In this document: piece by piece, positions 4,304 to 56,386 of the stretch
Position numbering within the stretch: position 1 is the first letter of the stretch
Layout: each line of letters begins with the position of its first letter
Assembly: GCF_004010195.1 (NCBI RefSeq)
Contig: NC_057753.1
Span: forward strand, 12,576,415-12,640,414
Reading direction: 5' to 3'
Length of the DNA: 64,000 nt
Origin: Chiloscyllium plagiosum
Taxonomy: Eukaryota
Program-made: the position numbers and the translations under genes
Notes under the pieces: generated by a model
What the model was told of the DNA's origin: nothing
The model's database searches: none
Seen by the model: the letters and a program-made list of their open reading frames with translations, nothing else

Positions 4304-5214
4304 CTAATTCATTAACTTAACAATTAGTCTCCAAAGATAATTTGCTGCATTCTTCAATTCCACTCTGAATTTTCTCTGTGTCACGGCATAAATACAAGTG
4401 TTGGTGCAACAGCTCAGGAGCTGAAGCATATTTCCACTTTCTTGTCGAATGAATCTTGAATCATTGAAATCGGACCCTGAGAAATAAGGTTCGTTTGTAA
4501 TTTTCACATAGAGGAAATCTACCACATACGTCATCCATAACAGGATGAAGCTTCCTGAGATGGTGAAGAGTAAAACAATGGACTTTCTCCGGCTCTCCAT
4601 CTCCGGATCATTATGATTTTCTCCACTGCTCGTGCTGGCTCGCAGCCGCCTCCGGGCTCCACTGGCTGCAAGGATGTGTCTGACAGTCAGAGCATTGAGC
4701 AGTAAAATCAGGAGGAAAGGCAGACCCGGATTTAAAACACGTGCAAACCAATCATAGGCAGTCCACCCTAATGAAGTATAGAAGCTTGATTTTACGTTAC
4801 AAAACCATGGCACCTTGTTGATTGTATACAGTGGTTCATACATAAAGTACCAGGGGATACTTTTTAAACAGCTCAACAAACCGACTAGTCCTATGACCAC
4901 AATCGCTGTTTTCTCTGTGCAATATTGTGTTTTTAGATTCTGACAACAAATGGCTATGAATCTATCGAAGGTGAAAGCAACAGTTAACCAGACAGAACTT
5001 TCTGTGGCTGCGTAGATGATCACCGTACTGAGTGTACAGGCCGGCGTCATGGACATAAAACTAACTGGGTAATAAATGCCAGTGATCCGATTGAATATCA
5101 CAGCACTGATAACCACCAAGAGATCTGCCACGGCCATGGAAACCAGATACCGAGTGATGCTTCCAGAAAGATCACATCTTCCACGGGAGAGGATCACGAT
5201 AGCCATCACATTTA
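4304..5214 (-). CDS. GPR139-like class A GPCR gene A, coding exon 2 (TM1 end to TM7; spliced protein 326 aa, intact)
   Basis: Polypyrimidine tract ending TTTCAG (AG at 5216-5215). Open frame with NVMAIVILS, YLVSMAVADLL (TM2), SVWLTVAFTFDRF (TM3), WFC (ECL2), P..LILLLN (TM5), LFTISGSFILLW (TM6), NMLQLLSCCTNTCIY (TM7). Motif pattern and TM1 intron position match GPR139/GPR142. Confidence 0.93.
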
Positions 5215-6394
5215 CTGAAAGGGGGAAAGTAATTGTAAGCGACGAACCAGATACATAATTGTGCAAGGTTTGATATTTTAGCATACTTTCTGAATGGAAA
5301 CAAAAGCATTTCTGTTTGCATCTCCAGTGACACCTCCATCTCACTAATAAAAGCACCAACTTACATTTACATAGCACCTTTAATATAATTGTCATAACAT
5401 GCTTCAGATAAAAGTTCTAGGGTAAATTTCGATGCTGATATACAGAAGGTAATTTACATATTCAGGGAAAACTAAATTTAACCTTGGGTTACCATATATT
5501 CTTCAAATAAACTATAATCAGACTTGAAAACGTAAAGATAATACTGGTGTCAAATCAGATTCAAACATCATGAACATTGATATAGCTGTACAAGTACTTT
5601 CACATTCATGCTGCCTTTCAATCAAAAGTACATTCTGCTTATCCAAATGTAGGGCAGGGTCGTCCTTGAAGAGCAAACTAATTATGGCTCAGAATTTTTG
5701 CCCATCAGGAAATGTTGCCGAGTCAAGCGTTTTACACTTCAGAGGGGCATAAAGACTCCAGTACGAGGGTGTGGACTGAATCATAATGAAAGTTAAAATC
5801 ATCACAATTCCAGAGGATCTTCGGGCTATGTACTCACTGGAGAGGTGACTGGTGGTGGTTTAACGGAAGGCTGTCCGCATGTCAGGCGACTGAAGTGGTT
5901 TGTTCCCAGAAATAGCATTAACAAAGCAGTTGGAGTTTTTGAGACAATCCACTATCCAAGATTGAGATTGGCACTCATGTCAAATTTGTTTTGGAGATTT
6001 ACTTATTCGGAAAAAAAAGTGAAATTTTAACTCATATTAAAGCCCTTCAGAATACTAATCAAGGCATGTAACTGCATGCTTCCATGCAGGTAATACGAAT
6101 CAATTGAATACAAATGCTAAATGTCCTATGCTAAGCCTTGAAAATCCAACCATGAACTCTCGATCTTGAATAACTGGCCAAATATTAATCGTTCCTTTCA
6201 TTCAGTCAAGGAATATTATCATCTTGAGGTTTAACAGGTTTTAATTAGGACGACTCGGTGTTGAACGTTTCCTGAGCATATTTAATTACCACAGCTAGCT
6301 GTCGATCGTTATGATATGTTTTCAGTTGCCAATGGCCGCACTAACTTACTGAATCAGTTCTTTACACAATTATTTATTCAGTACAATGACTCAC

Positions 6395-6464
6395 CGGGGA
6401 CTCCAATGGCAGCAAGAATTGGATAGTAAATTGCATACACTGGACCATCTATTCGACCATGCAT
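6395..6464 (-). CDS. GPR139-like class A GPCR gene A, coding exon 1 (70 nt, MHGRIDGPVYAIYYPILAAIGVP + 1 nt)
   Basis: ATG at 6464, 23 codons plus G, then GTGAGT donor starting at 6394. Joins in frame (G+TA = Val) to the exon starting at 5214. Confidence 0.93.
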
Positions 6465-6543
6465 TTTTTTAATATTTGAAAAGTTGCTCTCTGCTCTCTG
6501 TCGATCACAGGCATTGTCTCTGACAGGCTCAGAGATGCACCAA

Positions 6544-6549
6544 TTTATA
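6544..6549 (-). promoter_or_regulatory. Putative TATA box of gene A
   Basis: TATAAA on the minus strand about 80 nt upstream of the ATG; TATA-like motifs occupy similar positions in genes B and E. Confidence 0.5.
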
Positions 6550-7339
6550 ATGGTTGCAAGTCCACAGAGAGCCAATTATGCTCTCTAGACCTTTAGAGTT
6601 CTTTGTACAAAAGACACTGCTTGCCACTTCCTATTTGGAAGACATGTAAACGTTGGGAAAAGTAGTCAAATCCTGATTTCCGATGCTGATGTCCAGTGTA
6701 TAATCAAAATAAAAATGGTTTTCGTCCTGTGGGATTTTGCTTCAGTGATACAAAAAAGGAATATCGTTGGTCAAGAAACCAGGCTAAGAACACTGTGATT
6801 ACATTAAAACAAGTGAGAATGGTGATGGAAATGATGATCACATGCTATTTAAAGTACTTAAACAACGGAAGTTGTACTGATGCAACAGAGAACGTTTCCA
6901 CACAATGGAACTTATATACACACAAATGAAAGACAGAAGGTCTAAACTCACAATGATAATTATGGAAAATAAATTGTAAATGGGGAAATTTCCAAACTAA
7001 ATCGGGATAGAACCTCGGTCATTATAATGAAACATAAGTGTTTGTGAGATATTAGAGGAGATGTAGGAGCGATATTTCAAAATTTCTGACACCGCGACAG
7101 TGAAAAACCTCGAAAACGTTTCAAGTTAGGTCGATTCGTGTTCATATTTATAGCTGTTTGGGTTGTTCTAAGCAGTGGAGTTCGCAGGATCGAAGGTGGT
7201 GTTCGAGGGACCTCCGTGAGTTATTGCAATGCACATTGTGCGTGGAACACGCTGATCCTAAATTGCATTGATGATGATTTGAACTTTTATATAATATAGT
7301 GAATGGGAACCAATCATGTGGATTTCTCATTTTGGATCC

Positions 7340-8700
7340 TGCCAAGCTTCTTGAGTCGTGTTGGACCTAGACTCATCAGCCAAGCGGAGTGTTTTCAATC
7401 ACAAGACCTTTTTCTTGTAGGTGGTGGATGGTGGACAGAAAGTGTGAGTTGAAAAAAAAAGAATTAATCGCCACATAATTTCAGGCCTCTGGCCTGCGTT
7501 TACAGCAATAATATTTTCTTTGCTACTCTTGTTAAAATTTCTAATTAGTGCTAACCCAGAATGTCGATAGTCATGCATTCAGCTATAGTAATGTCATTGA
7601 ATGTCAAGGGACGATTGTTAACTTCACTTGTTACTGATAGTCACTTCCAGGCACTTACGTGCTGCACAAGTTATTTTACTTAACATTGCAAAGCTGAATG
7701 TCGACCTGATCTTGTTGCAAACAAGATTGACTGATTCAGTAAACGTCGAGTTAGCAATGATATTGAACATTGGATAAATATCAAAAAACATTACGCATCT
7801 AAGAATGTAATGGAGAGAGCATCCTTGAAGAAGCAGCAGAACAAGTTTTGATATTGAAGACTACACTAAGGAACTCGTGTGGTGATAGTGCTGTGGTTGA
7901 GATGAATGAGCTTCGAAATCCACCGTCCTCTCTGTTCCTACCAGTTATCACTGAAACCACGAGATATTAAATCAGTTTCATCGATTTTAGATTTTTTAAA
8001 ATGCCGTCTGGTTATGAAGAGTAGTCACTCTCAGTTCACCTCTGGAGTTTACTATTTATTCCTGTTTGGACGACCGCTGTAATTTGGCCACCAGCTGAAT
8101 GGATGTGACATAACCAAATCTTCATATCAGTTTGCACGTTATTCTATTCCATGTGCTGGTTGGTGGGTACTGTTGACGATGGCTTCCACCATTTTCAGAG
8201 AACACGAAGGTGTCGTTGGTTAGATTGCATTTTTCTTGAGTTTTAAGAACAGAACAATGCTAACAAACTTTGCACATTCGTCTTTAGCATTCTTCTCTCT
8301 TGGATAGCAGGTAACATTCATGCCACACATGTGTGAGACAGTACAAATCTGCAACATCTGATAATCTAATCATCATCCTTTATATTTTGTGATCAGCAGC
8401 ATCCTTTAACTCCCCACTGTCAAAATGCTAGTGGTAACAATTGACTGAATCTGAAATGTACTCGCAATATTAACATTGCAGATAAAACGAACCTTAACAA
8501 GAAATGAAGGATAATCTGTAACAGACACATCATCGAATAACTGAACTGCTAACTGCACAAATCCCTAAACCCTGCCCATGAGCTACAATACACAATTCAA
8601 GATGGTGATGCAAAACCTCAGACTTGCCTGATGAATGCAGATCCCCATATCTGGGATAGACCATCTAGTGTGATGGGCATAATTTTTTTTAGAAGCAATC
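7340..8700. mobile_element. Old L2/CR1-clade LINE fragments in both orientations
   Basis: Degenerate RT C-terminal remnants (for example QVTFMPHMC near 8308) and a minus-strand copy of related sequence at about 7340-8230. Confidence 0.4.
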
Positions 8701-11700
8701 ACGCCTTACAATACAAATGCATTACAGAATTGGCTTCTAGGTGTAAGAAGTATATTACGTAGTAAAGTATCATTGTGTTTTTTTTTAGTGGAGTCTGGTA
8801 AGCTGGTCAGCTGCCACAGGTGAGAAGTGACACGAAACTCTACCATTGTGCAGATTTTAAAGTTAATTTTCATTACCTCTTTCTGTTATCATCAGTACAA
8901 CCGAAAGCGTATTGAACCGAAAATTGAACCATTTTATAAGGAAGATCTTCGATTGCAGTTTTCTGTTTGGTCAGAAGCGTAGCAGGCCTGTGTTTAAAAG
9001 CAGATATGGTCAACATCAAACCCCAAATGCAGGCTGCCGTCAGTGAAGTGGGTGTATTTTACTTTTTTTCATTTCATTGCAAACATCGTTGTTTTTGTGA
9101 AGTAATTCAATGATTGATCTGATATCATGGAATCTCTTTCTCTCTCTCTCAAAGAAAAAAAATCTATGTGCAGGCAATGTATAGAATGCTAATATTTGAG
9201 AGAAAGGACTTCAGTAGCTTATGGGCGTTTCCTGTCAGGGACTATTTTGAAAAAAATGAGAGGGGATTTAATTGAAACAAATTAATTTGTCAAGTGCTCC
9301 TTTCAGGGTAGAGGCTGTGGACGCTTGATAGTTTAACAATTGATTTTTACACAATAATTAAATCAGCTTTTGTGGAAATATATTGTGGTGGTTGAATAAA
9401 GATGGATAATCATCCATGATCCCATTGAATAATAAAAAACGCTCAAAACTTTGACTGACTCGAATTATCGCAGTTCTTATGTTCGTACAAAATTAATTGA
9501 CTCTTCAACTGTCTGTTGCAAAGCTCATCAGCTGCAAATTGCACCGACCTGAAATTCTTGAGCTGGCTGGGCCTTTTGTTTACATAGTAACATGGAACCA
9601 GAAGGCGAATTCAATCAAATCATTTAAATTATGAGCGGGTCCAATAAGATAGATATGGAGCCATTTTCTTTTGGGATTAGGTCTCGAATAAATAGGAACC
9701 AATCGCATGACAGACCTTACGATGGAGAGCGTTTGTGCACAGTATTACAATACGGTGCTGAACTCTTCTGTTTATTCCAGCAATTTCTAGAAAAGCTCAC
9801 TTCACCTCGTAATCTGTTAAAATGTGAGTGACCGTGAACTTCCAATTTCCACTATTTAAAGAAAATAAAATGAACACTAAACAACAAATCTTCACATCTC
9901 TAAGACTCGCTTCCACTTAACTGCTTATTAACTGCCTCCAAGTCTGTGACAATATGCTGTTCCAATAAGATACTTATGAAAATATCAACAAGGTAATTTC
10001 AAAACCACACAGCAGCTATCGTTTTCGGTTTCTGTCTTTTTCCAGCTGAAATATCCCTTCGTCGTCTTCTTTCTTTTTACTGTGAGTAAGTTTCAAATGA
10101 AAAGCTTCTTTTGATAGAGAGTGCTTCGACATTCTTGGATCTGTGTTGATGGCACTTGCTCAATATGATGTTCAAATGTCTGCCTTTTTTACATTCTCTA
10201 CAACGGACCATCTTTTTGATTCAATGTTGGCAAAACAATAAATTCAAACTCAATTGCGTTTCAGTATCCTGCATCATAATTTACACTGATAGATTAAGTT
10301 TGAATTTCTATCAAAACAGCAACCAACACAGGTATCTATTTTGTAGCCAAATGTTACATATTTTCAGTTCTCCAGGACACTCTGAGACAGCTAGCTAGTC
10401 ATATACACAGGTGCTTGTGAGCTCTTAAGATAGCACACCATTCACTGTCTTATAGGTACAATGCACACCTTCAACTTCATAACAAGAGAAATGCATGAAA
10501 ACAATAATCTCGTTGAAATGTGGAGTGAGTGGAGAATAAAAATTGAGTTCGAAGGAAGGAATATGGAGACACACATATTTAAGGGCAATAGCTCACTATT
10601 GGTAGATTGGCTCCAGTGGAGAATAAACGTGTGTATCCTCATTATGAATCGACCAACGTGTCTCAAGATCGTAGAGTGATTTTAAAGTAAAATTCAGACA
10701 AAGGTGCGCTCAGTGAACACGGGAGAGAATTGTCCAATTGGTTGTTGGGAACTGAAATTGCCACACATGCAGAAAAGACACTTTTCTCTGAGCAATAGTA
10801 AAACCGCAGCAGAATATGCACAAATGGAAAACAAACAACAGTTGAGAGACTTAAAGGCACGATCTCTCGCTGGTCACACCACAACCTCTGTGTTGTCGGT
10901 GTAGAATTCACGTTAACCTTCATGTGAAAACTGAAACAAATGTAAAATTGAAAAAAAAATGTCGATCCTCTTGCTGCACGTAAACAATGAAACGGAATGC
11001 AAAACAGGCAGAAGCTCTCATGGCTTGTTCAATTTATAGCGATGCTTTGTTTCTCGCGTGATTTTCATTGTCATGAAATCTGTCCTTTCTATTGCATTTT
11101 CCTATGTGCCCTGAAGCAACACTGTTAGATTACTCTCGGAATTACCCGTTTGGGAAGTTATTCTTTTATTGGCATTCGAATGTTTCATTCGATTTGTCTT
11201 TTCACAAGAAAAATAGAAAAATAAATTTCTAATTGTGAAATGGGCAACATGGAGGAATTTTATTCATGCATTTTCCCATTCCAGTAACACGTAATCTAAT
11301 TGCTTCTGATCCTTTGCTGCTTCTCCACTTATTCACGTACCTGGCCATCTTCATCGTTCGTCAAATTAAAGTTGGTAATTTATTGTTGAATCCACAGACA
11401 CTTATGTAAATTTTAATAGTCCATTTTTCTCACATGAATCATATCACTTTGTCATCTAGTAAATTGGAATATAGATAAAATACGAATACAGATTTAATCC
11501 AGAGATTAACGGGTTTTATTTATAAAATGGGAAGAAGAAAATCCATAAAATGAAAATAACCTGTAGATTCAGTTCACTGGCATGTACAAATCATTATAAT
11601 TGTCTGCCTGTACAAAGCATTATAATCAGGTTTCGTTCTGCTCTGTCTTTGGTCTACATCAATGTGTACATAATCGCACCATATTTAGTTTTTTGTACAG

Positions 11701-13278: not shown

Positions 13279-13344
13279 TTCTCTCTCTCTCTCTCTCTCT
13301 CTCTCTTTGTGTGTGTGTGTGTCGCCCTCTCGCTCTCTCTCTCT
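13279..13344. repeat. Compound (CT)n/(GT)n microsatellite
   Basis: Directly visible. Confidence 0.9.
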
Positions 13345-19198: not shown

Positions 19199-19299
19199 TT
19201 AACTGGAGTGAAGCAGCCCCTCTAGTGGTTCCTCATTCCATCGATTTTGGAAACAGGAGACTGTTGATGGAGGATTCTGAGCACCCATATCAGTGGAGT

Positions 19300-20040: not shown

Positions 20041-20049
20041 GACAAGAGA

Positions 20050-20620: not shown

Positions 20621-20746
20621 ATCGAGGATGGTGGAACGAGCTCTGCGTGATAAATGGCAGACTCCGTGGCCTATGCTCCTATGACAGAGATTTGCACACA
20701 CTGGGAGGCTGGGGATGGGGGAGAATCTGAAAGAATTAATTGTATT

Positions 20747-21648
20747 TCACGGTTTAATGAAACTGATAAGCATAGCGAAAGGACATAGAAACATTTTCTT
20801 TACTTCCTCACGAAACTTGTTCTGGGATAGCACATAGATGAAAACGTTGTTGCAGGAACTGAGCAAAGTGAGCACAATGCTCGTCTCTTGGATAATGTAT
20901 TGGGGGTCATTGAAATTTAGGTTGCTGATATAGCCCTTACCTATAGCCCGCACGAAGACGAAGTTTCCCACATAAGTCACCCATAGGAGAAGGAAACTCA
21001 GAGAGATAGCAAAAAGCAGAATTATGGATCTCCTACGGTTGGCCATTTCCTTGTCGCCACTGTCCTCGATACTTCGGAGCCTCCTGCGGGCTCTGCTCGC
21101 TGCTAAGATGTGTCTCACAGTCAAAATATTGAGCAGGAAAATGAGGAAGAATGGGAGAAAAGGCGTTAAGATGCGGTCGAGCCAGTGGTAGGCTTGCCAG
21201 GCAGGCAGGGTGTAATAGGTTGACTTAATGTCACAGAACCAGGGGACGCCATCTACAATGACTAATGGCTGGCAGACAAAGTAGAACGGGAAGTTTTTAA
21301 TACAGCTGAGGGCACATATTGTTCCTATGACGATCGATGCAGTTTTCTCCGTACAGTATCTCACCTTCAGGCTCTGCCAGCAGATGGCCACAAAACGGTC
21401 GATGGTGAATGCTGCAGTCAGCCAAACTGAGCAATCCCGACTGATATAGATTAACACCGCACTGAGTGCGCTGGCAGGTGTGGTAGACATGACACTGTAC
21501 CGGAAGTAAATGCGTCCAATGCGTTTGAAGATGACAGCCGTGAGGATGACAAGGAAATCAGATACTGCGATTGCCACCAGGTAGTAGCTGATACATCGGG
21601 AAAGATTACACCGACCTCGGGATAGGATTATGATCGCGACCAAGTTGG
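20747..21648 (-). CDS. GPR139-like GPCR gene B, coding exon 2 (spliced protein 323 aa, intact)
   Basis: Acceptor TGTCACAG (AG at 21650-21649), phase 1 (G+CC = Ala). Open frame with NLVAIIILSRGRC, SVWLTAAFTIDRF, WFC, SFLLLWVTY, SCNNVFIY and stop at 20747. Confidence 0.92.
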
Positions 21649-23256: not shown

Positions 23257-23326
23257 CAGGGACACCAACAACAGCGAGAATTGGATACAAAATGGCAAAG
23301 ACAGGGCCAATCGCTGCACTGTGCAT
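23257..23326 (-). CDS. GPR139-like GPCR gene B, coding exon 1 (70 nt, MHSAAIGPVFAILYPILAVVGVP + 1 nt)
   Basis: ATG at 23326, 70 nt, GTAAGT donor at 23256. Clearly homologous to exon 1 of gene A. Absent from the ORF track because it is short. Confidence 0.92.
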
Positions 23327-23398
23327 TGTCTTTCGGAAACTAATAGAACTACAGAAGCTCTAATGCATTGCTCTGTCGAAATTTCAAAGCATTCCTCA

Positions 23399-23405
23399 TA
23401 TATAT
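23399..23405 (-). promoter_or_regulatory. Putative TATA-like box of gene B
   Basis: TATATA run about 75 nt upstream of the ATG at 23326, matching the position in gene A. Confidence 0.4.
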
Positions 23406-36808: not shown

Positions 36809-36861
<53 letters not shown>

Positions 36862-37179: not shown

Positions 37180-39517
37180 TCATTTAACATTAGTGACAGT
37201 CGTGAAGGGACACATACGCTTTGTCATCTCTTCTCGAAATTTGTTCTGGGACATTGCATAAATGAAGACATTGTTGCAGGATCTACGTATCTGAGGCAAG
37301 TTGGTCGTTTCTTAAAGAATAATATCAGGGTCACTGAAATCCAGGCCATTGAAGGATACTTCACTTAACAGTTGCACATAAAGATAATAGCTGCACCAAA
37401 GGAGGAGGAAACTGAACGAAACGCCAAAAAGCAACAGAATGAATGTCTTGCGATTGGCCATCTCTGGTTCTACATCATAGACCTGCCAGAAAGACGAAGT
37501 ATTGGTATAATGTCACAGAAGCAGGTCACCCTATCCACAATGTACCGTGACGGAGGGACTAAGTAGACAAAGACGTTCTTAACACAGCTCAGATAACAGA
37601 TCATTCCTATTACCAGCGTTGAAGTTTTCAAGTTGCAGTATCTGATCTTCAGATTCCGACAGCTGATGACCACAAAACAATCGATGGTGAAAGCCACTGT
37701 CAATCAGACAGAGCTACCTCGCGGAGCATTGTCCACATCACTGGTGATTGTTCACCCAGGGGTGGTAGATAGGGCACTGTTTCTGAAGTAGATACCACCA
37801 ATACGGTTGAGGACACTGCCAGCCACAATGACAGGTTGGTTAGCCATTATGATTCCCACCAGATAAAAGGTGACGCAGAGAGAGTGCCTAATTTGCCTTT
37901 GGCACAAGGCAATGATCACCAACAAGTTTGCTATAAGGACAGTGGAGACAAATATGTTACAGAATGAATCCCAAACTCCAGTCAATTATCCTCCCTATTT
38001 TGTTACTGAAAATGCTATCTCTCCACCTTCATCCATCCTTTTACTCAATCCTGATACCAACTGTTACCAAGCAGTTGGTTTTTCTTCAAGATTCAGTCAT
38101 GAATTAAACATTTGTACATATAGTAGCCACTCCAGTCAGCCCATGTGCAAACACCATTCTCTTTCCATTGAATCAAATCTTTCCGAAGCTCATCACTTTA
38201 ATCATACGCATACTTTTGTTTTCCGATCAAAGTCTATATTGATACTATCATCATTTCTTTCAAGGCAATGCATTTGTCTCCGGTCTGGCAATGCAGGATT
38301 TTAATAATGTAAACATTTTAATTTTCAATTAGCTCCATAGGCTCTCTCTTCACATCCCAGAAGTCTCAATTTATCCGTAATACTGCAATATCGTGTTTTA
38401 ATTCTTCTAATCAATCTGTCAGTGGTTATCTCGTGATCTACCGACGTGGTAACCTCTGGAAGCCACCTCCAAAGCCAGCCTCAATGTTCATATTTCTCTT
38501 TCTTTCTTTAGTTTGCACCTCACAATCAAACTTGATGTTCACGAATGTGCCAGCATGTAAAACCTGATTCTTTATCACCCTCCAAACCAATGGTTTGCTA
38601 GGCTATTTCAAACAGCAGTTAATCATCAGTCCGATTGCTGCCTGTCTCCTGCCACATACAGACCAGTGCAGGTAACAACAGTGACCTTCGTTTTCTGAAG
38701 TGCATTCGTAAACAAAATGGTATTTACGAAATTCCTCACTGATTATATGGCCATCATTAGATTTTTTTTTAAAATGCCACATTCCTTTATGAAATTCAAA
38801 TGAGCTCAAATATTTCCTAATGACAACAACAGAACCCATAACAAATTAAAATCTCGTTATTTTTAGACAAATCCACAAAAAACTTTATACGATACGATAC
38901 TAATAATGACACAACAAAGTTGAAACATATTAGCTTCTAATCACTATATTCCTCCACCAGTAAAAACTGCTGTGATTATTGCATGTACACTTATCTTGCA
39001 GTTCATCTACTACAACAATTGCTTCTCATAATATATTGTGATTCGTGTTTAACGACCCTAAGATAGTAAGTTTTCTACCTGGTATGTTACCACATGGATT
39101 TTAACGTGTTTTTTTTTAACGTTTATACCTTTTAATATTCATGTAAAGCTGGGTATACCAACTTAGATTTTAATTAAGTACCAAATGGAATTTCTATAAA
39201 TTGATTACGAAACATTAGTTAATAGCTTGAATTGTACCACAATGAAATTGCAATTTATATGCACATTTTAGCATAAAACCTGTGCTAAATGTACGTAAAG
39301 CACCTGTGCATGCTATAGCCACGTGCGAGCCCCGAACTTGCAAAGAGTACTGAAAATTACGCAATAATACAGCGCAACACAAAATGTAAGATACGACACG
39401 TTTGGTGATTTACAGGTATAAACGATAACATTTCGGGGATTAAACGCTTAGAAAGGGCGCCAATCAAAGGGATAAGTGTATAATGACAAAGAACGGGGCA
39501 ATGACTGGCTCATTCAT
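37180..39517 (-). pseudogene. GPR139-like pseudogene C (decayed exon 1 at 39452-39517, exon 2 at 37180-37930)
   Basis: Exon 2 starts after TCCTTATAG and reads NLLVII...LNRIGGIYFRNSALSTTPG*, LTVAFTIDCF, SCNNVFIYAMSQNKFREE. Stops at 37752, 37704 and 37312, a frameshift, and loss of TM5. The exon 1 relic ATG AAT GAG CCA GTC ATT GCC CCG TTC TTT aligns to gene B exon 1 with a 4-nt deletion and donor GT changed to CT. Confidence 0.85.
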
Positions 39518-39939
39518 CGTCTTTAAGAAGTTAAGAAATTTCCCAAATCTATACATGCAATCTCTACGAAACATTCAGATCTTCCCACATTTATTTTGAG
39601 CAAGAGTCTACAAAGGGACGAATCATGAACAGCAAGCACCTCAGTTACAGTTAGGTGAACAACCAAATTAACTAATGATTCCATGTCTTCCATTTGCAAC
39701 AACAAAAATGTTGAATATCTCATTTCACTTTTTTGACAAATGACTGAGTTGAACTCTGCCGTCCCACGTCGCCAGTTACCATGCTTTTGAAAGTGCCACT
39801 GATTGAGTATGCTGACTCCTGATTGTGTCGTTATTAAAAATTGTATCCTTCCTCATTCCCATTTCACACGCATAAAGAGAATTTAATTGCCAGATTAGTG
39901 TACGTATTACTTTTTATTGTGAAGTATTTTAATCGTTCA

Positions 39940-42314: not shown

Positions 42315-43200
42315 TCAACGTTTGATGGAAGGAATGACGGTGATATTAGGATTGAATACTAGTTTTCTTGACTCCACTCTGAACGTTTTCTTGGTCACCA
42401 AATAAACATTATTGCAGGAGGACATTTGTATTGGGATGATATTCGTCTTCTTTGAAAGGATTTACTGCATATCATTGAAATGCAGTCCACTTATGTAGGG
42501 CTCACCCAGAATCCGTACGTCGAGATAATGTCCAGCATAAGTTCTCCATAGAATGAGGAAGCTGAGAAAGAAAGTGAAACGCCGAGCAGTTGATCCCTTG
42601 CAGTTGGAAATCACCGGGTCTTTGTGGTTATCATCACAACGAGGCCTCCTCCGGGCTTCGCTGGCTGCAAAGACGATCGCAGCATTGGAAGGCAGAATGA
42701 GCAGTAATGGCAGAAATGGTTTAAAGATGTGGTTCAGTTGTGGTAGCTCTGCCAGGCGGGAGACGTGTAAAACAATTGACCTGACGCTAGAGATTCGAGG
42801 CATGCTATCCAGCATGTTCAAGAACCTGGAAGTCAAGTAAGACAGAGATTCTTGATGCATTTCAGTAGATAAGCTATTCATTTGGCAAGCAACGCAGTTT
42901 TCACCGTGCAGTATCTATTCTTCAGGTTATGGCAGCAAATGGCCACGTAACGGTCAACAGTCAAGGCCACTATCAGCCAAATTGAACAATTCCATATGGC
43001 GATGACAAGGACAGTTTTGACCTATACAAGGAAATGATGAGCAAAAAGCTTTCAGAAAAATAGATATCTCTAATACCGTGGATAATGACAACAGTGATGT
43101 TGACATAGAAATCAATTACAGTATCGTCATTAGAGAGTAGTTGATGCACCGGTAGAGTTAACATCGTCCCACTGATAGTTTCATAATTGTTAACAAGCTG
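42315..43200 (-). pseudogene. GPR139-like pseudogene D (exon 2 relic, many frameshifts and stops)
   Basis: Recognisable segments SIWLIVALTVDRYVAICCHNLKNRYCTVKTA, LNHIFKPFLPLLLILPSNA, AASEARRR, SFLILWRTY, EPYISGLHFND and SSCNNV. No exon 1 found. Confidence 0.85.
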
Positions 43201-47476: not shown

Positions 47477-47692
47477 AGTTAAAAATTACACAATGCCATG
47501 TTATAGGCCAAGAGGTTTATTTGTAAGAACTAGCTTTCGAAACACTGCTTGTTCATCAGATGTTTGTGACAACCACCTGATGAAGGAGCTGAACTTTGAA
47601 AGCTAGTGGTTCCAAGTAAACCTGTTGGACTATAACCTGGTATTACATGATTTCTAACATTGTACACCCCAGTCCAACACCGGCTCCTCCAA
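47477..47692. mobile_element. Short palindromic Penelope-derived element nested in the CR1 RT
   Basis: Hairpin centred near 47567 (TAGCTTTC...TTCATCAG / CTGATGAA...GAAAGCTA). It interrupts the CR1 frame between NDLNVNI and SKFAEDTKI. Confidence 0.7.
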
Positions 47693-48802
47693 TTCATAGG
47701 CAGTATACTTAGCAAGTTCGCAGAGGACACCAAAATTCCAGATGTAATGTTCAGCAAAAAGGTTTACCTCAGATTAAAACAATATCATGATCTGATGGGC
47801 CATGGGCTGAGGAGTGGTAGATGGAGTGTAATTTAGGTGAATGCGAGGTGCTGCATTTTGGAAAAGCAAACAATAGCAGGACTTATACACTTAATGATAA
47901 GATTCGAGGGAGTGTTGGTGAGCAACGAGACCTTAGACTTCATGTTAATGTCTACTTAAAAATAGAACCACAAGTGAACAGGATAGTGTAGAAGCCGCTT
48001 GGTATCTTTTCCTTCTTTAGTCAGAATATTGAGTATTGGAGTTGCGAGGTCATGTTGCGGCTGTGCAGGACATTGGTTAGGCCAGTTTTGGAATATTGCG
48101 TGCAATTCTGTTCTATTTCTTATCGGAAGAATGTTGTGAACCTTGACAGTGTTCAGAAAAGATTTACAAATATGTTGCCAGATTTCGAGGAGTTGGGCAA
48201 GACAGAGAGCCTGACCAGGCTGTTTCCCCTGGAAGTTTATAGAAGTTTATAAAAACTTGAGGGGCATGAGTAGGGTAAATGGAGAAAGTGTTTTCTCTCG
48301 TAGGGGAATGTAGAACTCAATGGCGTAGTTTCATGGTGAGCAGTGAAAGATATAAAACAGACCTAAGGGGCAACATTTTCACACAGAGGATGGTGCGTGT
48401 ATGGAAGGAGCTGCCTGAGGAAGTCGTGGAGACTCGTATATTTGCAGAATTTAAAATGCATCAGAATGGGTATATGAATAGGAAGATTATAGAGGGATAT
48501 GGGCCAAGTGATGGCAAATGGGACTAGATTAGATTAGGGATATCTGGGTCAGTATGGACGAGTTGGACTGGGGTCTGTTTCCGTACTGTACGTCTGTATG
48601 ACTGCATGACTGTATAATTAGGAGAGTTCTACAATCTCTGGCGATGTCATGTTGGAACAATATTTTAACCTATGGTAAACAATCTATTCCATCTGCTCAG
48701 AAACATCCATCGAACAGCAGCTGCACTGCTCTATTCATATTCAATGAATACAACTACAGTAAAAAAAACATCTAATTATCTCCCTGCAGACTTTCCACCC
48801 GA

Positions 48803-48808
48803 TATAAA
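48803..48808 (+). promoter_or_regulatory. Putative TATA box of gene E
   Basis: TATAAA about 50 nt upstream of the ATG at 48859. Confidence 0.45.
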
Positions 48809-51499
48809 CATGATCATTTTGCCGTGGAGTACGTAGTGTACCACAGTTTGTGCTGGAAATGCACGGAATACCGAAAGGCCTGGTATTTGCCATTTATTAT
48901 CCCGTTCTTGCAACAATCGGAGTGCCAGGTGAAGTATAGAATTTCAGTCTTACGTGGATCATCGGTCAACTTCATCAATTCTTCATTTTTCCAATAGCTC
49001 AATTCCATGATATATATCCTTTCTGATTTTCACTAGCTATGTCATCAATTCAGTGGTACAAATTGTTCTGCTTTTCTGATAGTACTTCTGCCTTTTTACA
49101 CTTTCATTCGTCTACTCTAACAGTGTTTCTTTGCCAGTTAATCTTATAATTTATGTCATGAACAGAAATGATTTTTCTCCAAATAATTGTGTTAATATCT
49201 CTCATTTAACGTGTTATTTTGCCAGCTTATGCCCGTGGTTGCTTCTCATGGCCTGGTCAATTTGCCCCTTTAATGCTTATGGAACTTTTTGTGACCAGTA
49301 TCACTTCAACATTTTACACTTTCCCTCATTTATACTTTCCCTCATTTATCCTTATAACATCAAGATACAAACATGGTTGTGTTGGCTTTTCACACTCCGT
49401 TTTAAGGATTTATAGCATTGTTATCTCGGTTGAATGCAATTATTAAATGCATTCAATGCAGGCGTTGCATTTTTCACAACGCTTTTAAGGGCCAATTACC
49501 ACAAAGGTACTGCAGTTTAAACGCGCTACATTGAGTATTGACAATATTGCTTTGGGAAAGTTACTATAATATTATCACAATGCAAATGGATCCCTCGTGT
49601 TCTTGGCGCTGTTACAGATGGTGACTGATCACATTGTTATCAGCATGAACATTTGGATGTATTATGTTTATCCATTTTTTACTGCAGGCATATTATGAGG
49701 ATGGAAATGGAGATCTATTGTTTAATGGACTGCATAACTCTGACAGAGTAATTTTGAATGAGAGCGTGGGACTTTTACATGATTGAACCAGAGAGCCCAG
49801 ATGCCTCCCGGTGGGCCAGTATTTATTGCTATTTCCTTGTTGCCCTTACAAAGGCAATAGATAGTTCCATTCCTGAACTGTGGTAATCATTAAGCTTAAT
49901 TTGACACGTAATGCCCAGGATTTTGACCTGCTTCCTAATGGCATTATTGTGAATCTGAAGAAAAATTAGTGAAATGGATCAAGAAGACAAATCACCACCT
50001 TCTGCAGAACAATGAGTGACAAGTAATTCAGGGAAATGGTTTCAATCAATGAAGCACTATTATGCATTGTGTTATGACTATTGTTACTAGGAGGGGATCG
50101 TCGCCTTGCAATCATGGTTTCAATTAATTAGGAACGGAGTGATTTCCAGAAATTAGAGCTTGGGATCTTTGACTCAGTGAGTTAAAGCATTTGAAGGGTA
50201 TTATTTTCGAGTTGTTGCCAAATATAGAAGGAAAATATTTTCCTCAGATTGGTTGTTTGTTCTTTGTCCCGATCTCACAATGCATTGTTTCTGCTTTCAG
50301 AGTGTAGTTTGTAGGTCTGCCATTACACACTGATTACTGTTCATGCTTCCATATATATGTCCATTGAGGCATAATTTTGTTCTGCTCCAATCACCCTGCA
50401 AAGCCTCATATTCTCCCCAGGGCGATTGACCTGAAAGCAATGAGTCAGTATAAACGTGATTTTGTCAGTAAAATCGAAATTACTGATTACTTGACCTTTT
50501 TTTTTAATTGGTGACTTGACAAGTGAATGTGGAGGAACAGCCAGATGCACACATATTTCCAAAATGTATTAGGCAAGCTACCATATCATATTTATTGTAG
50601 AGAATGAACTGCCATGATGCAAGAATAAGTGTGTTTCCATACGTAGATGAGTTTGCGAACAGGGAGAAATGAGTAAGTAAAAATGGTTCTTGTTTTCCTA
50701 AGCTGCAAAGTTTGGCGTTCCGTAAGTGTCAGTGATGAGGCTTCTAAATATTGCAGTGTTGATAAATGTCATGGTTAATAGTACGAAGGTATGGTTTCCA
50801 AACATGATAAACAACTGGATGTAGATTTGCAGGCTGAACTGGAAACTGAAAACGAATCTTCCACCTGAACGAACAAAAAAACATCCAGAACCTCAACTTG
50901 AGCTACAAAGCTTCTCAAAACTCGAGAATAATGAGCAATCAAAATAGATTTGAACTAACTCTGTGAAGAGAATATGAGCAGGTTACGAAAGAAAAGTAGG
51001 TTCAGTGAATAGATAAAAATGTGAAAATTGGAGTAAAATGCAAAATAAATGTGAAAACGCCCATTTTGGAAGAAAGAATAAGCAGGGTATCCATATGATG
51101 AGAGCTTGCAGAGTTTTAGGCTGAGGATATTCCCATGTACGTGGATCACCAAATGCTAGTTGCAGATGCATCAAGTAACTGGGGAAGTGAATAGAAATTA
51201 CTGTTAATGTCGAGAGAAATTGAATTCAAAAACAGTGCAATTGTGCTTCATTTTCAAGGGCATAATGAGTCCACATGTAAACAATTGACTAAAACACTGG
51301 TGTCCTTCTTTAAGGAATGTCATCAGTGATTTGTAAACAGTTCCGATAAGGGATTATTTACCAGACTGATTCCTGGAAAGAAAGGACTGCCCAGCAAGTG
51401 CTTGTGATGATCAGCTGAAGAACTCGGTACTACTGTTGCATCCTGTCCACTTTTACTTCCGAAACAAGAGAAATGCAAATTGGCCACTTATCTCCTTCC

Positions 51500-54400
51500 A
51501 TTTCAGACCATAAGGTATTGGAGCAAAACATCAGCTCTTCAGCACATCGAGCCTATTCTGACATTGAATAGTGGCTGATAAGTTTCTCAAAATCATTGTC
51601 CCATTTTCTCCCCTTAAGCTGTTTACCAGTTTGATATCCAAGAACCTCTCTATCTCCGTCTGAAATATGGTCAATGATCTATCCTCTACAGCCTTTTGTG
51701 GCAAAGAATTCCATAAATTCACCACTCTCTGGCTGAAGAAGTTTCTCCTTATTTCCGTTCGAAAAAGTGTTCCCTTTACTCTAAGGCTATGCTCTCGAGT
51801 TCTAGTCTCTTGTACAAATGGAATCATCTTCTTAGCATTTACACTGTCCAGGACATTCAGTGTTCTGTAATTTTCAACTAGATGCTCTCTCGTCTTTCTG
51901 AAGTCCATCGACGATAAACCCAGAGTGCTCAAATATTCCTCATATGTTGAGCATTTCATTCCTGGTACCATTCCTCTGAATCTCACCTGAACATGCTCCA
52001 GGGGCAGTCCATCCTTCCTGAGTTATGGGGCACAAAACTACGCACAATACTTCAATTGTGGTCTGACCTGCGCCTTACAGAGTTTCAGAAGCACACCCTT
52101 GCATTTGCCTTCAAATCTTCTTAAAGTAAATGCCATTATTTTATTTACCTTCCTCACTACTGACTCAACCTGCAAGGTTACATCGAAAGATTCCTGGACT
52201 AGAACTCCCAAGACCCTTTGCACGTCAGACTTTGAGTTTTCTTCCCATTTCGAAAATAATCCTTGCCTATATTCTTCCTACCCAAGTGCATGACCGCACA
52301 CTTCCTCACTTTGTACTCCATCTGCCACTTCGTAGACCACACTCTTCACGTGTCCAAATCCTTCTGCAGCCTCGCTGCCTCCTTAATGATGTCTATCCTT
52401 CTACCTGTTTTCGTATCTTCAGCAAACGTATGCAGGATGTTTTCAATTCCTTCATCAAGATCATGAGCGTGTAAAGTGAAAAGTTGTGACACAAACACTG
52501 AGCCCTGTGGAAGGCTGCCATCTTGAGAAGGACACTTTTATCCCCCACCTTCTGTTTTCTGCCAGACAGCCAATCTTCGATTCATGCTGGTACCTTGCCT
52601 CTGACACCATGGGCTCTTATCTTACTTAATAGCCTCCTGTGCACCAAGGTGTCAATCACCTTCTTGAAGTCCAGTTATTATACATCCATTGGCTCTCCAT
52701 GTTACTTTCTCAAAGAAGTCGAGCAGCTTTGTCAGGCATGGTCTCCCCTTAATGATACCAGGCGGAGTTTCCCCTATTTTACCTCACATATTTAGAACGC
52801 TCATCCTTCACATTTGATTGCAGGATGGTGGTTCACTTAATCAGTCTGTAACTTTCCGTCTTTTGCCTTAATTCCTATATAAACACGGGTATCATGTTAA
52901 CGAATTTCCAGTCCTTTGGGACCATCCCTGATTCAAGCAATTCTGGAAAGATCATCACTACTATCTCTTCACGTATTTCCCTTAGAACTCTGTGGTGCAA
53001 TCCATTTGGTTCAGGTAATTTGCCCAACTTCAGGACATTCAGTTTTTCTTGCATCTTCTCCTTTATGATGGTCACCATATTCAGTTCGGCCCCCTCACGC
53101 TCTGAAAGGTTTGGGGATTCTACTTGTCTCTTCAACCATGAAGACTGATACAAAGTAATTATTAAGTTGCTCAGTCATTTCTTTGTTCCTCACTACTCTC
53201 TGTGCAACGTCACTTTACAGCGGCCTCTCTTTTGCCCTCCTTAGATATAAAGAAACCCTTACAGTCTTCCTTCATATCAATGACTAGGTTACTGTCATAT
53301 TAACTCTTCTCCCTTCTTACTTCTTCCTTTGTTGCTCTCTGTTGCTCTTTGTAAGTTTCCCAATTCTGTAGTTTCCGACTACCTTTCGCCACATTATATG
53401 TTTTCTCTTTTGTTTTTATGATAACCTTGACTTTCCCAATCAGCCTTGGTTGTCTCTTCGTCCCCGTACCATGCTTCTTTTCCTTCAGATAAATCTCTGC
53501 AGTGACTCCTGACTGACTTCAAGAGACCCCTAACATTGCTGTTCCACTGCCTTTCCTGCTAGACTTCTCTCCCAGTTAATTCTAACCTGCTCCTCCTCAT
53601 GACTCTGTAGTTATGTTTGTCCAACTGCAATAGCGCTACCTTTGATTCTATCTTCCACCTCATAAATTTTAGAATAAATCCAATCATACAAAGATCACGG
53701 CCCCTATGGGTTCCTTTCCCTTCAGCTTCCTTATCAAGTCTGCCTCACTGTACGAAAATAAATCCAGTTTTGCCTGTTCGCCAGCGTGTTCCACCACAAG
53801 CTGCTCCAAAACGCCGTCTTGTCAACTTTTCACAATTTATTTTTCTTGCAATCCACTACGAACCTTACTTTCCTTGTCTATCTGCATATTGAAATCCCCA
53901 TAATCTCTGAATCCTTTCATTTCCAACACATCTTTTCAATCTCCTTGTGTATTTTGCATCCATCTCCTGACGACTATTTGGAGGCCTATATTTTTATTTG
54001 CTTCTGCAGTTCCTCAATACTACGTTATCCTTCATTTCTTGCTATTCATTTAGTTATGTTTATTACTAATTAGGCGATCCCACCCCTCTGCCCACTTGTC
54101 TATATTTTGAAAAGACATATATTCTTGAAATATTCAGCTGTCAATCCTGATCACCTTGCAGCAACATCTCCGTAATGCCCACCACATTTGAGGTGCCAAT
54201 TTTCATTCACGGCCCAAGCGTTTGCCTTATTAGTTACACTGCATACATTCAGATGTAACACCTTCAGTCCTGTAATAATCGTTCCCCTTCTTATTGTCAT
54301 TCGTTTGTACGGCGTGTTTGACGTTTGATTGCTCACACCTTCCATGCAGTCTGTCCTATGTGAGTCTGTGCTGGTGATTTTAATAACCCCTCCCAAGTTT
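51500..54400 (-). mobile_element. Decayed CR1 LINE inside the intron of gene E, antisense to it
   Basis: Minus-strand ORFs GLKVLHLNVCSVTNKA (endonuclease), VPKDWKFVNMIPVF, VRPQLKYCA, RRNFFSQRVVNLWNSLPQ. Confidence 0.88.
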
Positions 54401-54769
54401 CACCACGTATCTTAGCAAATCTATTGCTGATGTTCGAAACTGTGAACAATTTCAGAACTTTTCAACAAATGGCGCTGTATTTGACCTTCAATGAACTGTA
54501 AACGGTGTTCCTGCCAGCTTCCATACTTAATTATGACTTTACTATTTACTTCCTGCAATATTTTCTTTCATGTTTTGCTGTTGAATTTTCTCAGGTTTAC
54601 TTATTGGTTCAAGGTTTTTCTAGAGATGCCTCATTGTCTTTTCTTATTCTCCACTAAATATCCAACAAAATATCCTGTATTTCTACACTATTAACAAGCG
54701 TATACATTACCCAGATACTATTTTAAATGCAGTAAGCTAAACATATCACGGAGTAATACATTTCAACGT

Positions 54770-55100
54770 GACATGGTGGCTCATTAGTTTACACTTTTGT
54801 CTTACAATTCCACACACCTGGCTCAATTCCAGCCCCACACGAATGTCTGTGTGGTGTTTGCACATTTTAACTCTCTGTGTGTGAGTTTCTGCCACGCGTC
54901 ATTATTTTGCCACTGTCCAAAAACGTGCAAATTGGTTGGCATTTCCATGCTGGAAGATTGCCTACATTGCCCAGAAATGTCTTGATTAGGTGTGTTAGCC
55001 ATCCGACTTGCAGGGTTTCAGCGACGGAGTCAAGGGTCTGTCGGTGTGGACTTGTGTTAAATGGCTTGTTTCCACACCGTAGGGATTCCATAAGTATTCA
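54770..55100 (+). mobile_element. Degenerate HE1-type SINE in the gene E intron
   Basis: GTCTGTGTGGTGTTTGCACATT...TCGGTGTGGACTTG...GTTTCCACACCGTAGGGATTC. Confidence 0.65.
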
Positions 55101-56386
55101 GCAAAACCATTAATTTTACTTCGGGTCGAAGAATTACTTTACGTATTCTGCCATTTTATGAAGCACTGATGTTATCTCTATCTCTCTATCTCTCTGTTCT
55201 GCCTCTCACGACCTATCTATCTCTATCTCTTGCTCTCTGTTGCAGCAAATTTGACTGTGATTGTGATTCTGTCTCGGAAAAGGTGTGGTCTGTCTGGGTG
55301 TATGACAATTTACCTGGTATCCATGGCGGTGACAGATCTCCTGCTCCTGGTCACCACAGTAATATTAAACCGGATTGCTGAGATTTAATTTCCATTCAGT
55401 TTCCTGTCCATCACTCCCGTTTGCAGTCTCCGTATTGTCTTATCTTCGATTGCAGGAGACTGCACCGTTTGGCTAACTGTATATTTCACCATTGATCGAT
55501 TTGTGGCGATTTCCAGTCAGAAGCTGAAAATAAAATATTGCACGAAAAATACAGCAGCACGAGTTATAGGAATCGTGGCTGCAGTATGTGTTATAAAAAA
55601 CGCATTTTTGTATTATATATATATGAACCTCTGTACACATTCAACAATGTACCCTGGTTCTGCAAACCAATATTGATATTTTATGTGTCACCTGCATGGG
55701 CTGCATATGTCTTAATACGTTGCATTTTCAGCCCTGTTCTTCCATTTACTCTGATTTTACTATTCAATGCTTTGACGGTCAGAAGCATTCTGTTGGCGAA
55801 TTCAGCGCGCAGGAGACTCCGGGCCCACAGTTACGTTGTGAATCAGAATGACCCAGCGATGAAAAAACGGAGAAAGTCCATTGTTTTACTCTTTTCCATT
55901 TCAGGTAGTTTCCTCTTGCTGTATTTGTTATGTTTTATCACGATTTTCTATGTCCGAATTGCCAAAGTTACGTATTTCTCAGGTTCAGATTTCAGTGAGT
56001 CAACATTTGTCCTTGAGGAGAATGGATTTATGCTTTTATTTTTGTGTTCCTGCATCAACCCGTTTATTTATGCTGGAACCCAAAATAAATTCAGAATTGC
56101 GTTAAAGAATGAGCTTAAATATCCGTTGTGTCGATTTCTTCAATAATTCGAAATATGAAAATGGAAATATTCTATGTTAGCCATGTGCAATGTTCCAAAA
56201 GTATAACGTAACAATACTAGACAAGAAATATGCCATTTAAACAGAATGTGTAGTAAGAATGAGTAGTATCAGGATTTCTTGCACGTTTTATTCATTTGAT
56301 GTTGTTTTTTTGTGACCAGATAAACCAATGTATGTTGTTTCCCATAATTACATACATATTGTTAACTTAAAAGACAATTTGTCTGA

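What the first reader, a model, noticed from the sequence alone, without database searches (positions are those of the whole stretch)
4304..56146. Birth-and-death cluster of GPR139-like orphan receptors: candidate uncharacterised chemosensory or metabolite-sensing family
Seen: five paralogous 7TM loci in 52 kb, two intact and three pseudogenes at different stages of decay, with compact two-exon genes, a very short N-terminus and variable extracellular loops. Known: mammalian GPR139 and GPR142 are single-copy receptors activated by aromatic amino acids (L-Trp, L-Phe), and cartilaginous fishes have few classical olfactory receptor genes. Inference: tandem expansion with frequent pseudogenisation is the genomic signature of OR, TAAR and V2R-type sensory families, so these may be a lineage-expanded amino-acid or peptide sensor repertoire. 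Such genes are usually auto-annotated only as 'probable GPR139'.
Basis: partly seen in the sequence, partly recalled or inferred. Interest (0 to 1): 0.75.

Follow-up and report, generated by a model that had tools for sequence, protein, structure and literature searches.

The report
Overlooked large shark receptor gene family
These five genes belong to a large family of cell-surface receptor genes in sharks and rays that databases label as GPR139; its evolution and promoters look like those of a smell- or taste-type sensor set in animals thought to have few such genes, but where the genes are switched on is still unknown.

Summary
Observation confirmed: five paralogous class A GPCR loci, two with open frames (A, B) and three broken (C, D, E). 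They sample a large elasmobranch family: 119 of the 120 best hits are named shark, ray or skate proteins, 47 from horn shark alone. They are not GPR139 orthologues. Their sister is a single-copy gene of amphibians and sturgeon (99/97), and 0 of 190 members keep four of GPR139's five Trp/Phe-site residues; the basic 6.51 is mostly lost and acidic pocket residues appear. A has 72-89% identical orthologues across sharks and rays, so the cluster mixes old subfamilies with later losses. New here: the window's only two matches to an Lhx2+Ebf-type composite motif lie 29-30 nt before the TATA boxes of A and E. Best reading: a chemosensory, probably olfactory, repertoire, perhaps for cationic ligands (about 0.5). 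There are no expression or ligand data; B lacks the motif and the TM3 cysteine; true GPR139/142 could not be put in the tree. Seven searches of the open-access library found no paper on the expansion.

The parts
4304..5214 (-). Gene A exon 2 (TM1 second half to stop); spliced product 326 aa, open frame
   Evidence: AlphaFold2 model of this exon is a 7TM bundle with an ECL2 hairpin, mean pLDDT 83.6
6395..6464 (-). Gene A exon 1 (70 nt, ATG to phase-1 GT donor)
6544..6549 (-). TATA box of A, 85 nt before the ATG
   Evidence: sequence match only; no transcript start seen
6561..6578 (-). Homeodomain site + 2 nt + O/E(Ebf)-like site (TAATTG GC TCTC TG TGGA), 29 nt before the TATA box
   Evidence: compared with probes in PMC5608512 supplement file 27
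20747..21648 (-). Gene B exon 2; spliced product 323 aa, open frame, but Ser in place of the TM3 disulfide Cys (codon at 21472)
23257..23326 (-). Gene B exon 1 (70 nt)
23399..23404 (-). TATA-like box of B, 78 nt before the ATG; upstream only the 3' part of the A/E motif is recognisable, with no homeodomain site
37180..37930 (-). Pseudogene C exon 2, B subfamily: 3 stops, 7-nt and 126-nt deletions; acceptor AG kept
39456..39526 (-). Possible decayed exon 1 of C (not significant)
   Evidence: nhmmer E 0.19
42315..43200 (-). Pseudogene D exon 2, B subfamily: several frameshifts and at least 3 stops; no exon 1 found
48773..48790 (+). Homeodomain site + 2 nt + O/E(Ebf)-like site (TAATTA TC TCCC TG CAGA), 30 nt before the TATA box of E
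48803..48808 (+). TATA box of E, 56 nt before the ATG
48859..48928 (+). Gene E exon 1 (70 nt), intact
55246..56146 (+). Young pseudogene E exon 2: one stop (55386) and one +2 insertion in a TA run (about 55615)

Best explanation
The five loci are a sample of a chemosensory receptor repertoire of sharks and rays, most likely used in olfactory or other chemosensory neurons. It arose from one copy of a GPR139/GPR210-related class A receptor that stayed single in amphibians and sturgeon and multiplied in elasmobranchs; several subfamilies were in place before sharks and rays split, and later copies keep being gained and lost. Shown: family size, ancestry, gene structure, lesions, pocket residues, the promoter motif. 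Inferred: (1) Lhx2-type and Ebf-type factors bind the composite site next to the TATA box and drive expression in sensory neurons; (2) each receptor has its own ligand range, set by variable pocket positions (2.64, 3.28, 3.32, 3.37, 5.42, 6.51, 7.39); (3) loss of the ancestral basic 6.51 and gain of acidic 3.37, 5.39, 5.42 and 7.36 shift many members from carboxylate ligands towards amines or basic or amidated peptides; (4) signalling runs through a G protein by the kept DRF motif, type unknown.
For: Size: 119 of the 120 best hits are named proteins of 17 elasmobranch species, 47 of them horn shark, 32 of those with one longest-contig length; 122 clusters at 50% identity reach E 1e-30, and 18 of 18 shark-type ones looked up are elasmobranch. 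The catshark has 32 canonical v2r and 2 canonical OR genes (PMC11979771, passages). Contrast: the sister gene gives one row for each of 20 amphibian species, plus one sturgeon; sister support 99/97 and 99/98. Birth and death: 3 of 5 loci here are broken. Pocket: entropy 1.93 at 36 pocket positions against 1.23 at 165 others (p 1e-5); 9 of the top 20 subfamily-specific positions are pocket positions (p 0.003). Charge: 6.51 is Arg/Lys in 24 of 24 amphibian rows and 6 of 6 other outgroup rows shown, but in 5 of 190 family rows; 3.37 is Asp/Glu in 156 and 5.42 is Asp in 99 of 190. Promoter: with the spacing of the Sfaktiria composite and the OMP O/E site, the only 2 matches in 64 kb at up to 2 mismatches lie 29 and 30 nt before the TATA boxes of A and E, on the sense strand; chance per 200-nt promoter about 1e-4, or 3-6e-3 if any spacing 0-10 and either strand is allowed. 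Room in the nose: seven probes label 12.6 cells per mm in all, in an almost continuous neuron monolayer (PMC10116579, passages; the sum and the gap are my inference). Look-alike invertebrate clusters carry the Srw chemoreceptor family on 17-74% of members (a lead only).
Against: No expression or ligand evidence at all. Against the extracellular-half non-pocket positions the pocket excess is not significant (entropy 1.93 v 1.64, p 0.07; specificity score p 0.12), and the sample is biased to relatives of A. Motif: the count of 2 matches is itself not unusual (18 of 100 shuffles reach it), only the placement is; A and E share an ancestor, so this is one event; B lacks the homeodomain half; I looked up the composite after noticing the motif; each O/E site has 2 mismatches; A-E upstream similarity is modest (1% of random segments reach it). 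In mouse the composite is enriched in enhancers, not in OR promoters (PMC12547500, passages), and Ebf also acts in B cells (recalled). All catshark olfactory neurons appear Go- and TRPC2-positive, which the authors read as a V2R-dominated nose. The top 50 brain-plus-olfactory genes hold no GPCR, though that is expected for sparse receptors. A is well conserved (72-89%), more than many odorant receptors (recalled).
Confidence: 0.5

Rival explanations
1. An innate-immune or barrier sensor family, on leukocytes, mast-like cells or skin and gill sensory endings, that detects microbial, parasite or damage-derived cationic peptides, as FPR, MRGPR or C5aR-like expansions do in bony vertebrates.
For: Same genomic signature. 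Acidic pocket and peptide-receptor fold with an ECL2 hairpin. Cartilaginous fishes lack MAS1 and its relatives (PMC8455134, passages), leaving that role open. Catshark OR genes are often highest in spleen or ampullae. Ebf sites fit B cells too (recalled).
Against: The homeodomain site sits at the composite spacing next to the O/E-like site in A and E. Deep one-to-one orthologue groups across sharks and rays suggest stable ligands rather than a fast arms race (inference).
Confidence: 0.2
2. Internal nutrient or neuropeptide receptors like GPR139/GPR142: aromatic amino acid or Wamide/RFamide-type peptide sensors in brain, gut or pancreas.
For: GPR139 is the best match among solved structures by sequence (E 1e-10 for A, 4e-17 for the profile). 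W6.48 is kept in 170 of 190 rows. The wider clade is activated by aromatic amino acids and amidated aromatic peptides (PMC8557429, passages).
Against: 0 of 190 rows keep 4 of the 5 GPR139 site residues, and Arg6.51 is in 2 of 190. Dozens of diverging copies per genome with many pseudogenes do not fit a small set of internal ligands (inference).
Confidence: 0.12
3. Mostly non-adaptive copy gain: a few useful genes, such as A, are carried along by unequal crossing-over in repeat-rich DNA, and most copies drift to death.
For: 3 of 5 loci are broken and B has lost a conserved cysteine. The region is rich in high-copy repeats. Near-identical recent copies exist in some species.
Against: At least 8 well-supported multi-species subfamilies, with 87% within-group identity at pocket positions. 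Second codon positions are far more conserved than third between paralogues (0.75 v 0.40-0.46). A promoter element is kept between A and E.
Confidence: 0.1

Closest known systems
GPR139 (and GPR142), class A orphans activated by L-Trp and L-Phe
   Same: Best sequence match among solved structures; same wider clade; W6.48 kept, N7.39 kept in 78 of 190 rows.
   Different: Only 44 bits against A, while the amphibian gene scores 174 and the coelacanth gene 144 against A's horn-shark orthologue. No GPR139-type motif among 276 stored relatives. F3.33, H5.42(5x43), P6.50 and R6.51 are mostly replaced. The family has a TM3-ECL2 cysteine pair (183 and 184 of 190) and a longer ECL2, where the aligned GPR139 shows no such cysteines. 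Multi-copy rather than single-copy.
GPR210A/GPR210B and a third subtype (orphans of coelacanth, gar and fishes beside GPR139/142; PMC6504862, passages)
   Same: Describes low-copy bony-fish orphans next to GPR139/142. The coelacanth and teleost proteins found here (P0230, P0240, P0250) fit that description.
   Different: The word 'shark' does not occur in that paper's main text. Its Ensembl ids could not be mapped to my rows. The coelacanth/teleost clade lies outside the elasmobranch + amphibian/sturgeon clade.
Single-copy amphibian and sturgeon gene annotated 'probable GPR139' (e.g. XP_069092602.1)
   Same: Sister group of the family, 99/97 and 99/98; about 32-34% identity.
   Different: One row per species; pocket positions nearly invariant among amphibians; keeps P6.50 and K6.51.
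Vertebrate chemosensory families (OR, TAAR, V1R/ORA, V2R, T2R, FPR)
   Same: Tandem clusters, pseudogenes, short N-terminus, nearly the whole coding sequence in one exon, variable extracellular face, homeodomain + O/E-like promoter sites. Asp5.42 recalls the non-canonical amine site of teleost TAARs (recalled, no call).
   Different: Not members by sequence: Pfam gives 7tm_1 only, and no TAAR or FPR is among the best PDB matches shown. Expression in sensory cells is not shown.
Invertebrate Srw / FMRFamide-receptor-like chemoreceptor expansions (nematodes, molluscs)
   Same: Same broad receptor neighbourhood. In a deep-sea snail, Srw genes are expanded and a 'probable GPR139' is high in the osphradium (PMC10638732, passages).
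   Different: Independent expansion. PF10324 is precomputed on only 2 of 120 hits and not found on the window proteins.

Membership tests
GPR139/GPR142 orthologues | Closest human receptor of known structure is GPR139 | tested here: met
   E 1.3e-10 for A, 4e-17 for the profile, next TRHR 7e-12. The fold search did not single it out: not in the 50 rows shown.
GPR139/GPR142 orthologues | Groups with GPR139 or GPR142 to the exclusion of other vertebrate receptors | tested here: inconclusive
   No GPR139/142 sequence could be fetched for the tree (one search returned 3 amphioxus rows). Scores and trees put an amphibian/sturgeon gene much closer.
GPR139/GPR142 orthologues | Trp/Phe site F3x33, H5x43, W6x48, R6x51, N7x38 (PMC5430874) | tested here: not met
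   A keeps 2 of 5, B 1 of 5; of 190 rows 8 keep none, 74 one, 97 two, 11 three, 0 four or five. Positions were assigned from sequence alignment, not from a superposition.
GPR139/GPR142 orthologues | Single-copy, highly conserved gene | tested here: not met
   47 horn-shark rows among 120; 5 loci in the window.
GPR139/GPR142 orthologues | Activation by aromatic amino acids; brain or pancreas expression | not testable with these tools
   No assay; no informative RNA run.
GPR210 (PMC6504862) | Orthology to the named coelacanth Ensembl proteins | tested here: inconclusive
   Ids not found in the supplement; the candidate coelacanth/teleost clade is separate from the family.
Known vertebrate chemosensory families (OR, TAAR, V1R, V2R, T2R, FPR) | Sequence membership in one of these families | tested here: not met
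   Only PF00001 at E 0.001; best PDB matches are GPR139 and peptide receptors.
Chemosensory-type repertoire (works like) | Lineage-specific tandem expansion with pseudogenes | tested here: met
   the pseudogene share is known for this window only (3 of 5).
Chemosensory-type repertoire (works like) | Excess variation at ligand-pocket sites | tested here: inconclusive
   p 1e-5 against all other positions, p 0.07 against extracellular-half non-pocket positions; no dN/dS possible without coding sequences.
Chemosensory-type repertoire (works like) | Lhx2 and Ebf (O/E) sites in the regulatory DNA | tested here: inconclusive
   Present at composite spacing in 2 of 3 promoters, absent in B; binding untested; no other promoters available.
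Chemosensory-type repertoire (works like) | Sparse, mutually exclusive expression in sensory cells; response to external chemicals | not testable with these tools
   No tissue-labelled RNA run; the catshark atlas supplement could not be read.

The most novel reading that the evidence does not exclude
This is an unrecognised vertebrate olfactory receptor family and the largest chemoreceptor repertoire of sharks and rays. It was recruited from the GPR139/GPR210 neuropeptide-receptor lineage, as Srw was in nematodes, and is switched on by an Lhx2/Ebf composite site in each gene's own promoter. It would account for olfactory neurons that no known receptor labels and overturn the view that the shark nose runs on a few dozen V2Rs.
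Probability: 0.35. Interest if true: 0.92.

Novelty: new variant of a known kind. Interest (0 to 1): 0.72.

Why it matters
Sharks have large olfactory organs but very small known receptor families, and genome papers speak of a paucity of GPCRs in cartilaginous fishes. A family with at least 51 distinct horn-shark proteins in my lists alone is hidden under one automatic label and changes that count whatever it does. If it is sensory, it is a new vertebrate chemoreceptor family and answers a standing question about what the shark nose uses. That is directly testable with existing catshark tissue atlases and one in situ experiment. The single-copy amphibian sister gene offers a Xenopus or axolotl handle on the ancestral function.

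Tried and rejected
No whole genome was held, so no genome-wide count, synteny or promoter survey. No RNA holder was listed for gene A. Two single-cell runs of unstated tissue were laid on 4150-23450: X5 (about 2% read) gave 111 partial reads, none in the exon bins, and X6 (about 6% read) gave none; the 3' end of A may lie outside the stretch, so this says nothing on expression. X1 and X3 turned out to be DNA. A search meant to reach true GPR139/142 through an amphioxus region returned 3 amphioxus rows. The metagenome scan gave 26 distant loci (best full-length match 29%), no shark-type gene, and was not used. The fold search confirmed a class A peptide-receptor fold without ranking GPR139 in the 50 rows shown. 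A 26-bp satellite before the promoters, reported for another genome, is not here: best periodicity under 0.48 in five upstream stretches. No Rfam match. With 3 mismatches the composite pattern is at chance level (8 v 9.55); spacings 0 and 10 each gave one hit away from any gene. One regular expression was faulty and its two zero counts were dropped. Literature: searches found no paper on this expansion; the library is open-access only; the supplement of PMC11979771 was unreadable and 12 of 24 supplements of PMC8455134 were not searched. PMC13113109 was checked and does not bear on this. Rejected: artefact of assembly duplication (paralogues 49-64% identical in DNA); recent local burst (three subfamilies); GPR139 orthology by annotation alone.
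Full report
OBSERVATION. The window holds five paralogous class A GPCR loci among LINE-like and other repeats, and no sixth. A (exon 1 6464-6395, exon 2 5214-4304, minus) and B (23326-23257, 21648-20747, minus) splice to open frames of 326 and 323 aa through a phase-1 GT..AG intron in TM1. E (48859-48928, 55246-56146, plus) has the same structure, one stop at 55386 and a +2 insertion in a TA run. C (37930-37180) has three stops and deletions of 7 and 126 nt. D (about 43200-42315) has several frameshifts and at least three stops. Exon 1 was not found with confidence for C or D. The loci are 49-64% identical in DNA, so they are not assembly duplicates, and two DNA runs cover A and B at the depth of unique flanks. 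B has Ser at 3.25, where 183 of 190 near-full-length family rows have Cys; its frame is open but it may be impaired. An AlphaFold2 model of A's exon 2 is a 7TM bundle with an ECL2 hairpin (pLDDT 83.6) and matches peptide receptors at TM about 0.7.

THE FAMILY. A's exon 2 finds 2,533 proteins at E 0.001 among 6,208 candidates; that total includes non-members. Of the 120 listed, 119 are named proteins from 17 shark, ray and skate species, 113 of them labelled probable or putative GPR139; 47 are horn shark, 32 of those with the same longest-contig length. An exhaustive search of 50%-identity representatives gave 122 at E 1e-30. Three of these are bony-vertebrate genes; of the other 119 I looked up 18, and all 18 are elasmobranch. 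No chimaera appeared among named rows. No genome was held, so I have no per-genome count. The nearest hit is whale shark at 89%, which points to a carpet-shark-like host (inference).

ANCESTRY. Outside elasmobranchs the best relative is a gene found once per species in 20 amphibians and once in a sturgeon; that word-limited search listed no amniote or teleost among 25 hits. Further out lie a coelacanth/teleost clade, an anchovy/lamprey pair, amphioxus, and annelid- and bivalve-type receptors. IQ-TREE on 64 rows makes 47 elasmobranch-type rows one clade (98/90), sister to the amphibian/sturgeon gene (99/97). A mixture model on 30 rows keeps the sister link (99/98) and weakens family monophyly to 87/85. 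C and D were left out of these two trees. In the 256-row FastTree, A sits in a 14-row orthologue group spanning sharks, skates and rays (99; identities 72-89%), B, C and D sit together with basking shark and bamboo shark genes (99), and E sits with horn shark, sevengill and zebra shark genes (100). So subfamilies are old, and gain and loss went on within them. True GPR139 and GPR142 are missing from all trees (one search failed to reach them), so the deepest relations stay open. By score GPR139 is far: 44 bits for A against 174 and 144 for the amphibian and coelacanth genes with A's horn-shark orthologue as query, and none of 276 stored relatives bears GPR139-type motifs. PMC6504862 (passages; supplement search) named GPR210A/B for low-copy fish and coelacanth orphans beside GPR139/142 and does not mention sharks in its main text; I could not map its ids.

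POCKET. PMC5430874 (passages) places Trp and Phe between F3x33, H5x43 and W6x48, with the charged end at N7x38 and R6x51 (R6x51 from the model, since its mutants did not reach the surface). By alignment A keeps two of these five and B one; 0 of 190 rows keep four. Position 6.51 is Arg or Lys in 24 of 24 amphibian rows and 6 of 6 other outgroup rows shown, but in 5 of 190 family rows (Tyr 103). Acidic residues are common at 3.37 (156), 5.39 (132), 5.42 (110) and 7.36 (133). From this I infer a shift towards cationic ligands; Arg at 3.36 (86) and 5.43 (104) may neutralise part of it. Asp5.42 recalls the amine site of teleost clade III TAARs (recalled, no call). Pocket positions are more variable than other positions (1.93 v 1.23 bits, p 1e-5), and 9 of the top 20 subfamily-specific positions are pocket positions (p 0.003). 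Against extracellular-half non-pocket positions the excess is not significant (p 0.07 and 0.12). Extracellular loops vary more than intracellular ones. The pocket list is a generic class A set from memory, and the sample leans to relatives of A.

PROMOTER. A, B and E each have a TATA-like box 85, 78 and 56 nt before the ATG. A and E share an element just upstream. The Sfaktiria enhancer probe of PMC5608512 has a homeodomain site, 2 nt, then an atypical Ebf site, and the OMP probe gives the canonical O/E site (supplement file 27; passages). A pattern built from these two has exactly two matches at up to 2 mismatches in 64 kb, at 6561-6578 and 48773-48790, on the sense strand 29 and 30 nt before the TATA boxes of A and E. 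The count alone is unremarkable (18 of 100 shuffles). The placement is not: about 1e-4 per 200-nt promoter, or 3-6e-3 with free spacing and strand. Cautions: A and E share an ancestor; B lacks the homeodomain half; I sought the comparison after seeing the motif; in mouse the composite marks enhancers rather than promoters (PMC12547500, passages; PMC7804114, passages); Ebf also works in B cells (recalled). It is a lead towards sensory neurons, not proof.

EXPRESSION. None could be shown. The laid single-cell runs are of unstated tissue and uninformative. The catshark atlas supplement was unreadable; its main text reports no GPCR among the top 50 brain-plus-olfactory genes and never names GPR139 (PMC11979771, passages). 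PMC10116579 (passages and section 13) finds all olfactory neurons Go- and TRPC2-positive and reads the nose as V2R-dominated. Its seven probes, covering up to 16 V2Rs plus ora2 and taar1a, label 12.6 cells per mm together in an almost continuous monolayer. That this leaves many neurons without a known receptor is my inference; I saw no neuron density figure.

MECHANISM AND RIVALS. Most likely (0.5) this is a chemosensory repertoire in olfactory or other sensory neurons, with ligand range set by variable pocket positions. Rivals are an immune or barrier sensor family (0.2; sharks lack MAS1-type receptors, PMC8455134, passages), GPR139-like internal amino acid or peptide sensors (0.12; PMC8557429 and PMC12208981, passages), and mostly neutral copy gain (0.1). 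The same broad receptor neighbourhood holds the invertebrate Srw chemoreceptors (PMC10638732, passages), so recruitment to chemosensation has a precedent.

NOVELTY. The genes are in RefSeq under an automatic name. Searches of the open-access library found no paper on the expansion; subscription papers and unread supplements may hold one. An earlier AI note on a ray genome reached a like reading, which is not independent support; its 'only in sharks, rays and chimaeras' needs the amphibian/sturgeon sister added. New in this report are that sister gene, the charge switch at 6.51 and the promoter composite. Verdict: real, a new variant of a known kind, interest 0.72; 0.92 if olfactory expression is shown.

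Noticed in passing
window 26744-27934: A 389-nt inverted repeat (90% identical arms, 26744-27132 and 27548-27934) flanks an ORF remnant (27089-27505, minus) that looks like the GIY-YIG endonuclease end of a Penelope-like element (recalled; no Pfam hit). Related ends occur near 1091, 18806, 29351, 29724 and 45199, and the 18318-19605 bins reach very high depth in DNA runs.
   Followed up: partly
window 4902, 5070, 5107: Three coding differences of gene A seen in other individuals' DNA all change a residue (I128T in X1 and X3; Y72F and S60C in X1). The table of differences was truncated, so silent ones may be missed.
   Followed up: partly
window 6464-6459, 23326-23321, 48859-48864: All three first exons start Met-His, as do 109 of 190 family rows. 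A conserved His2 on an 8-residue N-terminus could reach the pocket or bind a metal; untested.
   Followed up: no
P0216, P0294-P0313: A conserved single-copy orphan GPCR of all three amphibian orders and sturgeon, labelled GPR139, with no amniote or teleost hit in that search; it seems unnamed.
   Followed up: partly
P0264, P0277-P0279: The lamprey relative carries a long ECL2 insertion of repeated units rich in N-x-T sequons.
   Followed up: no
window about 15100-17700, 33973-36118, 46229-48620, 51542-53725, 61544-63770: Decayed LINE-like copies lie between and inside the genes; the one at 51542-53725 sits in E's intron and explains part of its 6.3-kb length.
   Followed up: no
window about 61044-61543: A run of 500 N (assembly gap); further family members could lie in or beyond it.
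   Followed up: no
window 48859-56146: E faces the other four loci in the opposite orientation and has only two lesions, one in a microsatellite; it could be a very young pseudogene, a null allele or an assembly error.
   Followed up: partly
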